DNA from: Escherichia coli
GTDB lineage: Bacteria > Pseudomonadota > Gammaproteobacteria > Enterobacterales > Enterobacteriaceae
Assembly: GCF_003334255.1 (NCBI RefSeq)
Contig: NZ_QOWU01000159.1
Strand: one strand, 5' to 3'
DNA length: 1,411 nt
The notes below the pieces were generated by a model. It was not told where the DNA came from and searched no databases. It was given only the letters and a program-made list of their open reading frames with translations. Every line of letters starts with the position of its first letter. Positions within the stretch are counted from its first letter, which is position 1. Shown here one piece after another: positions 750 through 985 of the stretch. The position numbers and the translations under genes were made by a program.

Positions 750-973
750 AACGCGGCCTCTTTGTTATAGGTTTCGTGCGTTAATAAATCCCATGACGCC
801 CCGTTGTTTTTGCTCAGTAATCGCCAGCGGAAACCGATTCTTATTACCAGGTAGTCGTGGGGTTTTATGCGTGAAAAATTCCGCACGCCGTCGCGGAATA
901 AACGCAGCGATGCGCGGGCTTTTCTTTCCACGTTCAGGGGGGGGCAGCAACACACATTCAGGATGGCGACCAT
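746..973 (-). CDS. Hypothetical small basic protein (75 aa), possible translational-coupling ORF between the exonuclease and dam; may be non-coding
   Basis: ATG 973..971 lies 7 nt downstream of GAGGTGA (984..978), a near-consensus Shine-Dalgarno whose first bases overlap the exonuclease TGA stop. The ORF stop TGA (748..746) overlaps the dam ATG as ATGA (749..746). Against a real gene: product MVAILNVCCCPPLNVERKARASLRLFRDGVRNF... is Arg-rich with no recognisable motif, contains the G8/C8 tract and contains a terminator-like hairpin. Confidence 0.3.
   Translation of the reverse strand: MVAILNVCCCPPLNVERKARASLRLFRDGVRNFSRIKPHDYLVIRIGFRWRLLSKNNGASWDLLTHETYNKEAAL
757..761 (-). promoter_or_regulatory. 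Shine-Dalgarno (AGAGG) for dam
   Basis: Coding-strand AAAGAGG-ccgcgtt-ATG; 7-nt spacer to ATG 749..747. Confidence 0.55.
874..899 (-). terminator. Candidate intrinsic terminator or attenuator (7-bp stem, 8-nt loop, UUUU) in the minus-strand transcript
   Basis: Minus-strand RNA 5'-AUUCCGC (899..893) GACGGCGU (892..885) GCGGAAU (884..878) UUUU (877..874)-3'. The stem has 4 GC and 3 AU pairs, with a possible extra G-U closing the loop. Oriented with the genes; on the plus strand the same palindrome is followed by AAACG, not a T-run. Weak: the stem base next to the U-tract is AU-rich and stability was not computed. Confidence 0.25.
937..944. repeat. Homopolymeric tract G8 (C8 on the coding minus strand)
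   Basis: Direct read: plus strand 931..946 is cgttca-gggggggg-ca. Lies inside the small ORF (codons TGC-CCC-CCC-CTG). Its presence is certain; its biological significance is not. Confidence 0.9.
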
Positions 974-977
974 GGCT

Positions 978-985
978 TCACCTCA
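978..985 (-). promoter_or_regulatory. SD-like TGAGGTGA overlapping the exonuclease stop codon, positioned to start the small ORF at ATG 973
   Basis: Coding-strand ACATATGAGGTGAAGCCATG; matches AGGAGGTGA consensus at 8 of 9 positions; 7-nt spacer to the ATG. Confidence 0.4.

What the first reader, a model, noticed from the sequence alone, without database searches (positions are those of the whole stretch)
750..982. Two of three minus-strand frames are stop-free across the spacer
Besides the 75-codon frame (982..749), the dam frame is also open from 977 down to the TAA at 767..765 (70 codons); only the third frame has stops (for example TAA at 783..781). Under a crude random-sequence model with 3/64 stop probability per codon, one 70-codon open stretch has a chance of a few percent, so two at once is mildly unexpected. 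This could reflect coding constraint, a frameshift relationship through the C8 tract, or chance in a short region. I rate it low because the estimate ignores base composition and frame dependence.
Basis: inference. Interest (0 to 1): 0.25.

Follow-up and report, generated by a model that had tools for sequence, protein, structure and literature searches.

The report
Small prophage gene, chance second frame
The "spacer" is an already annotated 75-codon gene for a small RelE/ParE-fold protein in a P2-like E. coli prophage; the second stop-free frame is a non-conserved chance by-product, and the one mildly unusual feature is a run of eight C's in the gene that often changes length between copies.

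Summary
On the minus strand one frame is stop-free over 982..749, the dam frame is stop-free over 977..768 (70 codons), and the third frame has 7 stops.

It lies between the 3'-5' exonuclease and dam genes of a P2-like prophage.

The second open frame is not coding:
- pN/pS is 1.4-2.1, against 0.33-0.39 for the ParE-like frame.
- It has no homologues.
- It carries stops in nearly all homologues at 65% protein identity or less; among 70 of them the median open run is 26 codons.

Given one coding frame, a second open sense frame is common: 16% of codon permutations and 17% of 70-codon windows in this prophage's own genes.

Tract 944..937 is C7, C9 or C10 in 13 of 36 close copies, and it holds 13 of 16 frame-altering indels. 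Tract-free homologues show 0 of 70 broken ORFs.

Whether this is phase variation, decay or assembly error is unresolved.

The parts
983..1411 (-). 3' part of a 3'-5' exonuclease gene, cut by the window edge; stop TGA 985..983
   Evidence: Translation. At 99.4% DNA identity, RefSeq annotates '3'-5' exonuclease' WP_001537136.1 / WP_016236094.1.
978..984 (-). Shine-Dalgarno-like GAGGTGA; its GAGG core ends 7 nt before ATG 973
   Evidence: Read directly from the sequence. It is conserved in all close copies.
746..973 (-). 75-codon gene for a small RelE/ParE-fold protein (ATG 973..971, stop TGA 748..746). This is what fills the 'spacer'.
937..944 (-). C8 homopolymer (G8 on the plus strand) inside codons 10-13 (TGC CCC CCC CTG = C-P-P-L); its length is polymorphic between copies
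   Evidence: 36 close copies: C8 in 21, C7 in 7, C9 in 5, C10 in 1, CCCCACCC in 2. Variants occur on several haplotype backgrounds. 13 of 16 frame-altering indels across the 1411 nt fall here.
768..977 (-). 70-codon stop-free stretch in the dam reading frame, bounded by TGA 980..978 and TAA 767..765. It overlaps the ParE-like gene and is not a gene.
   Evidence: No PHROG or NCBIfam match and no tblastn hit in phages at E<=1. pN/pS 1.4-2.1. In all but one of the 11 homologues at 40-65% identity it carries 3-8 stops. In 70 further homologues the median longest open run is 26 codons, with 65 or more in 3 of 70.
951..957 (-). ATGTGTG: ATG 957..955 (third frame) and GTG 953..951 (dam frame). These are the starts PGAP uses for C9 and C7 variants to reach the ParE core; neither has a recognisable SD.
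   Evidence: CDS starts in L004 (955) and L003 (959). Variant products were modelled.
1..749 (-). 5' part of the DNA adenine methylase (dam) gene. ATG 749..747 overlaps the ParE-like stop as ATGA. It has its own SD, AAGAGG at 762..757.
   Evidence: Translation. RefSeq 'DNA adenine methylase' WP_016232593.1. The TAA at 767..765 separates the open dam-frame stretch from dam, so that stretch is not an N-terminal extension of Dam.

Best explanation
The 233 bp between the exonuclease and dam genes are a real, already annotated gene. It is a small accessory gene of a P2-like E. coli prophage and encodes a 75-residue protein with the RelE/ParE toxin fold (Pfam ParE_like). It is translated from ATG 973 behind its own Shine-Dalgarno sequence. 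Its stop overlaps the dam start (ATGA), so the two genes are probably translationally coupled.

That gene accounts for the first open frame. The second open frame (the dam register, 977..768) is a chance by-product of this gene's codon sequence. It is shared only by near-identical copies through common descent. It encodes nothing.

Separately, the C8 run in codons 10-13 is a slippage hotspot. One-base gains and losses recur in different copies and put ATG 973 out of frame with the conserved core:
- C7: translation from ATG 973 stops at TGA 936..934, directly after the tract.
- C9: translation continues in the open dam frame to TAA 767..765 and would give a 69-residue basic nonsense peptide.

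These variants most likely switch off or weaken the protein, because they lose the predicted N-terminal strand.

Shown: the gene's identity, its fold, the purifying selection on it, the non-conservation of the second frame, and the tract polymorphism in assemblies. Inferred: translational coupling, loss of function in the variants, and that the polymorphism is biological rather than an assembly artefact.
For: Gene identity.

P2-like prophage context (integrase, Cox, replication endonuclease, portal).

Selection: pN/pS is 0.33-0.39 in the ParE frame, 1.4-2.1 in the dam frame and 0.76-0.86 in the third frame. Variable columns by codon position 1/2/3 are 9/9/15.

Second frame not conserved. Second frame without homologues.

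Conditional nulls: 16%, 5.8% and 17%.

Tract polymorphism. Indel hotspot. Control: 0 of 70 tract-free homologues are frame-broken against 13 of 36 tract-bearing copies, Fisher p = 1.5e-7. Variant products.

No Rfam family, promoter or terminator in the region. No unusual RNA structure after the tract, z = -1.0.
Against: The naive dinucleotide-shuffle test gives 0.58% for two open minus frames. For this specific frame, synonymous recoding gives only 1.5%. The openness is therefore on the unlikely side of ordinary rather than typical.

The codon-position periodicity among close copies is weak on its own (chi-square p = 0.34).

No experiment shows that the protein is made or what it does. No partner antitoxin is evident.

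Some tract variants could be homopolymer errors of long-read assemblies. Sequencing platforms could not be checked with these tools.
Confidence: 0.9

Rival explanations
1. The C8 tract is a true contingency locus: a selected, reversible ON/OFF (phase-variable) switch for a potentially toxic phage protein. The open dam-register frame would help by letting ribosomes in the +1 state travel almost to the dam start, so that dam expression is not polarised.
For: - 13 of 36 copies are out of frame, on several haplotype backgrounds, including short-read metagenome contigs (3 of 12).
- 13 of 16 frame-altering indels lie in 8 of 1411 nt.
- The core frame stays open in every variant.
- A second, independent C8 tract sits at codons 4-6 of a homologue with 55% identity (L028). 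Its 92%-identical relative L050 has C7 and is out of frame.
- No other G/C run of 8 or more occurs in the 183 kb of fetched loci.
- CCC is a rare proline codon in E. coli (own knowledge).
Against: - A mutational hotspot does not need to be selected. Neutral decay of a dispensable prophage gene gives the same picture, and the gene is cleanly deleted in two E. coli prophages (H28 = L012 and H29).
- Two copies have the tract interrupted (CCCCACCC). The 70 sampled tract-free homologues, mainly Klebsiella-type, have no homopolymer longer than 5 nt.
- dam has its own SD (sequence).
- Only two sequences are available for the second lineage.
- Reversibility and switching rates are untested.
Confidence: 0.2
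2. The dam-register frame encodes a second, overlapping protein. It would be reached either from its own start (GTG 953) or by programmed -1 ribosomal frameshifting or transcriptional slippage on C_CCC_CCC. It might, for example, be a partner or antitoxin for the ParE-like protein.
For: - The frame is 70 codons open, and C_CCC_CCC formally fits the X_XXY_YYZ slippery pattern (sequence).
- No separate antitoxin gene is evident next to the ParE-like gene.
- The naive shuffle gives p = 0.006.
Against: - pN/pS is 1.4-2.1 in that frame.
- It has no homologue in PHROGs, NCBIfam or six-frame phage DNA.
- The frame is closed in almost all homologues lacking the tract.
- There is no SD before GTG 953 (sequence).
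- The RNA downstream of the tract folds no better than shuffles, z = -1.0.
- The tract itself is absent from most of the family.
Confidence: 0.03
3. The tract-length differences are purely assembly or sequencing errors at a G/C homopolymer. All natural copies would then be C8 and in frame.
For: - Homopolymer indels are the typical error of PacBio RSII and Nanopore assemblies (own knowledge).
- At least one variant (NCTC9112, L004) comes from a long-read project (one search gives the record; the platform is from own knowledge).
- The control of 0 of 70 in tract-free homologues is expected under this explanation too.
Against: - Variants also occur in metagenome contigs with SPAdes-style names (L039 C7) and other ENA metagenome contigs (L042 C9, L044 C10), and in 5 of 10 IMG/VR copies.
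- The same loci show almost no indels at other homopolymers across 1411 nt.
- Point mutations also shape the tract: G->C just upstream, and C->A inside it.
Confidence: 0.2

Closest known systems
Pfam PF24732 'ParE-like toxin domain' / PHROG phrog_1525 / RefSeq 'ParE family toxin-like protein' (WP_000225756.1)
   Same: The match is full length (model positions 2-67 of 67; PHROG 3-72 of 75). An identical protein is annotated in many E. coli genomes at the same position, between the exonuclease and dam genes of P2-like prophages.
   Different: Nothing differs; this is the family it belongs to. No function has been tested for the family as far as I could find (searches found no paper).
RelE/ParE superfamily type II toxins (RelE, YafQ, YoeB, HigB, ParE)
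   Different: - It has 75 residues against 84-121 in the single-domain toxin chains matched, and one N-terminal helix instead of two.
- No sequence-level hit to any solved toxin.
- No adjacent antitoxin gene and no conserved neighbour across phage contexts.
- Toxicity and target are untested.
Simple-sequence contingency loci (poly-G/C phase variation as in Neisseria, Haemophilus, Campylobacter, Bordetella)
   Same: A G/C homopolymer of 7-10 nt lies inside the 5' part of a coding region, and its length differs by +/-1-2 nt between otherwise near-identical copies, toggling the reading frame.
   Different: - The host is E. coli, where such loci are uncommon (own knowledge).
- Neither the switching rate, the reversibility nor any phenotype is known.
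- The tract is absent from most of the protein family.

Membership tests
Pfam PF24732 ParE_like / phrog_1525 | Significant full-length match to the family profile HMM | tested here: met
   PF24732 i-Evalue 1.2e-17, residues 14-71 on model 2-67/67. phrog_1525 E 5.5e-27, 4-73 on 3-72/75. All 37 database homologues carry PF24732.
RelE/ParE superfamily (fold level) | RelE/ParE alpha/beta fold | tested here: met
Type II toxin-antitoxin system (ParDE, RelBE or HigBA type) | Adjacent co-transcribed small antitoxin gene | tested here: not met
   The neighbours here are a 193-aa (582-bp) exonuclease and a 326-aa Dam. Neighbours differ in other phages: Dam/Dcm, primase, assorted small ORFs without a common partner. 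A non-adjacent or unrecognised partner cannot be excluded.
Type II toxin-antitoxin system (ParDE, RelBE or HigBA type) | Growth inhibition by the toxin, neutralised by the antitoxin | not testable with these tools
   Needs expression experiments.
Overlapping (dual-coding) genes | Second frame kept open in diverged homologues and under purifying selection | tested here: not met
   Stops are present in 10 of 11 distant homologues. Median open run is 26 codons in 70 more. pN/pS is 1.4-2.1. No homologues of the product.
Programmed -1 ribosomal frameshift site | Conserved slippery heptamer followed by a stimulatory RNA structure, with a conserved trans-frame product | tested here: not met
   The heptamer C_CCC_CCC is present only in the E. 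coli clade. The downstream fold has z = -1.0. The trans-frame product is not conserved.
Phase-variable contingency locus (slipped-strand mispairing) | Tract-length polymorphism that changes the reading frame among closely related copies | tested here: met
   C7, C8, C9 and C10 in 36 copies, with 13 out of frame, on several backgrounds. The caveat is that assembly error is not excluded.
Phase-variable contingency locus (slipped-strand mispairing) | High-frequency reversible switching within a clonal population, with a phenotype | not testable with these tools
   Needs deep sequencing of clonal cultures and reporter fusions.

The most novel reading that the evidence does not exclude
The C8 run is a selected phase-variation switch on an orphan RelE/ParE-fold gene carried by P2-like prophages. 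It would have evolved independently in at least two lineages of the family (the E. coli clade, and L028/L050). Lysogen populations would then stochastically turn a potentially toxic or phage-host-conflict protein on and off. The open dam-register frame would let the +1 state translate through to the dam start. The dam-frame peptide itself being functional is much less likely (about 3%).
Probability: 0.15. Interest if true: 0.45.

Novelty: already known. Interest (0 to 1): 0.15.

Why it matters
As posed, the finding matters little. It is a worked example of why a second stop-free frame across about 70 codons is not evidence of coding once one frame is a real gene. In this prophage, about one in six such windows shows the same thing. 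The "spacer" is a gene already in RefSeq and Pfam.

The side observation has some modest value. A G/C homopolymer in a phage-borne RelE/ParE-fold gene changes length in roughly a third of sequenced copies, and a second lineage carries an independent tract. If that reflects real switching, it would be a rare case of simple-sequence phase variation in an E. coli prophage gene. It would also explain the inconsistent RefSeq annotations of this gene, which range from 46 to 75 aa with different starts.

Tried and rejected
1. Megablast of the window against the phage collection found nothing. The E. coli genome collection gave the homologues instead.

2. The dam-frame and plus-strand ORF translations had no NCBIfam match, and the dam-frame translation had no PHROG match. 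The dam-frame peptide had no tblastn hit in phages at E<=1.

3. A sequence search of the PDB with the 75-aa protein gave only a chance hit, E 1.3. The fold search was needed.

4. Non-coding explanations for the region were rejected:
- Rfam scan: no match.
- Promoter and terminator scan: nothing in 750..982.
- RNA fold downstream of the tract: z = -1.0.

5. PADLOC: the protein is not a known defence component.

6. Stop-codon readthrough from the exonuclease into the ParE-like frame was considered, because the two share a frame here and are separated by one TGA. It was rejected because Klebsiella homologues have an 8-nt gap, which puts the genes in different frames.

7. The open dam-frame stretch as an N-terminal extension of Dam was rejected. 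TAA 767..765 intervenes, and all annotations start Dam at ATG 749.

8. Literature searches for PF24732, phrog_1525, ParE-like toxins in P2-like prophages and homopolymer phase variation in E. coli prophages found nothing specific.

9. A DNA-pattern scan for more copies of the second-lineage tract returned only the known contig.

10. I did not run the expensive genome-contig scan, nor a whole-database protein search with the dam-frame peptide. The cheaper tests had already settled the question.

Full report
**What is in the window.** All three genes lie on the minus strand.
- The 3' part of a 3'-5' exonuclease gene runs to the stop TGA 985..983.
- A 75-codon ORF has ATG at 973..971 and TGA at 748..746.
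- The 5' part of a DNA adenine methylase gene starts at ATG 749..747 and overlaps the preceding stop as ATGA.

Megablast found the whole 1411 nt at 89-99.4% identity in 29 complete E. coli genomes. It always lies inside a P2-like prophage with integrase, Cox, replication endonuclease and portal genes. There the middle ORF is annotated 'ParE family toxin-like protein' (WP_000225756.1), or 'hypothetical protein' in some records.

**Checking the observation.**
- The frame of the 75-codon ORF is open over 982..749. That is 78 codons; the '75' is the ATG ORF.
- The dam register is open over 977..768, which is 70 codons, bounded by TGA 980..978 and TAA 767..765.
- The third frame has 7 stops in the interval.

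In 20,000 dinucleotide-preserving shuffles, at least one minus frame was open for 70 or more codons in 18%, and two were open in 0.58%.

**The first frame is a gene.** The 75-aa product has several independent lines of support.
- It matches Pfam PF24732 (ParE-like toxin domain) at 1.2e-17 over the whole model.
- It matches phrog_1525 at 5.5e-27.
- It has tblastn relatives in 60 phage records down to about 33% identity.
- It has 37 protein clusters across Enterobacterales, nearly all 75 aa long.

The family alignment (A1, 32 sequences) has an invariant or near-invariant core, YLVIRIG-RWRLLSK--G--W-L-THETYN. It also has a recognisable N-terminal pattern, M---L-V-C-(A/P)P(L)-V. ATG 973 is therefore the likely true start, and the residues encoded by the C tract (C-P-P-L) belong to the protein.

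**The second frame is not a gene.** Five results point the same way.
1. Its translation has no match in PHROGs or NCBIfam. It has no match in six-frame phage DNA at E<=1.
2. Between the three most diverged nucleotide-alignable copies, Nei-Gojobori pN/pS is 0.33-0.39 in the ParE frame. It is 1.4-2.1 in the dam register and 0.76-0.86 in the third frame. Variable columns fall 9/9/15 on codon positions 1/2/3 of the ParE frame. That is the right direction but weak alone, p = 0.34.
3. The frame is open only in copies with at least 86% protein identity. Of 11 homologues at 40-65% identity, 10 have 3-8 stops in it. In 70 further tract-free homologues the longest open run has a median of 26 codons, and it reaches 65 or more in only 3.
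4. With the right null, conditioning on the real gene, a second open sense frame is common. It appears in 16% of codon permutations and 5.8% of synonymous recodings (1.5% for this particular register). It also appears in 17% of all 70-codon windows in the other CDSs of the same prophage, where 11 of 23 other genes contain an off-frame open run of 68 or more codons.
5. The fully open plus-strand frame (ORF 607..1008) is equally unremarkable, occurring in 43% of permutations.

TAA 767..765 separates the stretch from dam, so it is not a Dam extension. No Rfam family, promoter-like or terminator-like site lies in the interval.

**The C8 tract.** Aligning the copies showed that nearly the only indel polymorphism in the locus is the length of the C run at 944..937.

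Among 36 close copies (14 RefSeq or window, 10 IMG/VR, 12 metagenome contigs) the tract is:
- C8 in 21
- C7 in 7
- C9 in 5
- C10 in 1
- interrupted (CCCCACCC) in 2

The variants sit on several different haplotype backgrounds, so they arose repeatedly. Over the full 1411 nt, 13 of 16 frame-altering indels lie in these 8 nt. As a control, all 70 tract-free homologues have intact ORFs: 0 of 70 against 13 of 36, Fisher p = 1.5e-7. The frame breaks are therefore caused by the tract and not by general decay.

The modelled consequences differ by tract length.
- With C7, translation from ATG 973 ends at TGA 936..934, right after the tract.
- With C9, it enters the open dam register and ends at TAA 767..765, giving a 69-aa basic peptide.

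In both cases the conserved core can be reached only from SD-less starts: GTG 953, ATG 957 or GTG 931. This explains why PGAP annotates the gene at 46, 61, 68, 70 or 75 aa in different genomes.

I found no support for programmed frameshifting. The tract is missing from most of the family, the downstream RNA folds no better than shuffles (z = -1.0), and the trans-frame product is not conserved.

**A second tract.** A homologue with 55% identity (L028) has an independent C8 run at codons 4-6 (ATG GCG GCA ACC CCC CCC ACG). Its 92%-identical relative L050 has C7 there, with the ATG out of frame. No other G/C run of 8 or more occurs in the 183 kb of loci fetched. This hints that such tracts may be favoured in this family, but the second lineage has only two sequences.

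**What it probably does.** The protein is a compact RelE/ParE-fold protein carried as an accessory gene in the early or replication operons of many temperate and some virulent enterobacterial phages. Its neighbours vary from phage to phage and there is no conserved small partner. It is cleanly deleted in two E. coli prophages, leaving only the last ~11 codons, so it is dispensable. It matches no PADLOC model. Conserved Arg/Lys residues in the sheet and the C-terminal H-E-T-Y-N suggest a RelE/HigB-like RNase rather than a gyrase poison. That is inference only.

**Verdict.** One frame is an already known gene. The other is a chance, non-conserved, unconstrained open frame. The only feature worth a follow-up is the hypervariable C tract. 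Its status as real phase variation, neutral hotspot or assembly error cannot be settled with these tools.

Noticed in passing
window 937..944 (minus-strand C8, inside the ParE-like gene): The homopolymer length differs among 36 near-identical copies: C8 in 21, C7 in 7, C9 in 5, C10 in 1, interrupted in 2. It accounts for 13 of 16 frame-altering indels across the 1411-nt locus. RefSeq therefore annotates the gene with five different lengths (46-75 aa).
   Followed up: yes
L028 1481..1488 (IMGVR_UViG_2832991980_000005) and L050 (IMGVR_UViG_3300011894_000043): An independent C8 tract lies at codons 4-6 of a ParE-like homologue with 55% identity. The 92%-identical relative has C7 and is out of frame with its ATG. 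Sister sequences (L051-L053) have no tract.
   Followed up: partly
L012 (NZ_CM153263.1, E. coli strain Bongo) 929..967; hit H29 was inferred from the same BLAST pattern but not fetched: In these prophages the ParE-like gene is cleanly deleted. The exonuclease stop is followed by 37 nt, which retain the gene's last ~11 codons, and then dam. The gene is therefore dispensable.
   Followed up: partly
window 983..985 and 971..973: The exonuclease and the ParE-like ORF share one reading frame here, separated only by TGA plus three codons. In Klebsiella phage homologues the gap is 8 nt and the frames differ, so this is coincidental and not a readthrough arrangement.
   Followed up: yes
window 607..1008, plus strand: A 133-codon antisense ORF spans the whole interval, so 3 of 6 frames are open. 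It has no family match. An antisense frame open for 70 or more codons appears in 43% of codon permutations of the gene.
   Followed up: yes
L005 (NZ_CP075652.1), equivalent to window ~1147; L046, equivalent to window ~1260: There is a single 1-nt deletion (L005) and a 5-nt deletion (L046) inside the exonuclease gene of individual copies. RefSeq shortens the exonuclease CDS in L005. These are possible pseudogenisation or assembly errors.
   Followed up: no
Family alignment A1 (window protein residues 41-70): The ParE_like family has a strongly conserved core, YLVIRIG-RWRLLSK--G--W-L-THETYN. Its basic residues and C-terminal His/Tyr resemble RelE/HigB-type RNase sites more than ParE. No cognate antitoxin or conserved neighbour was seen in any phage context examined.
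   Followed up: partly
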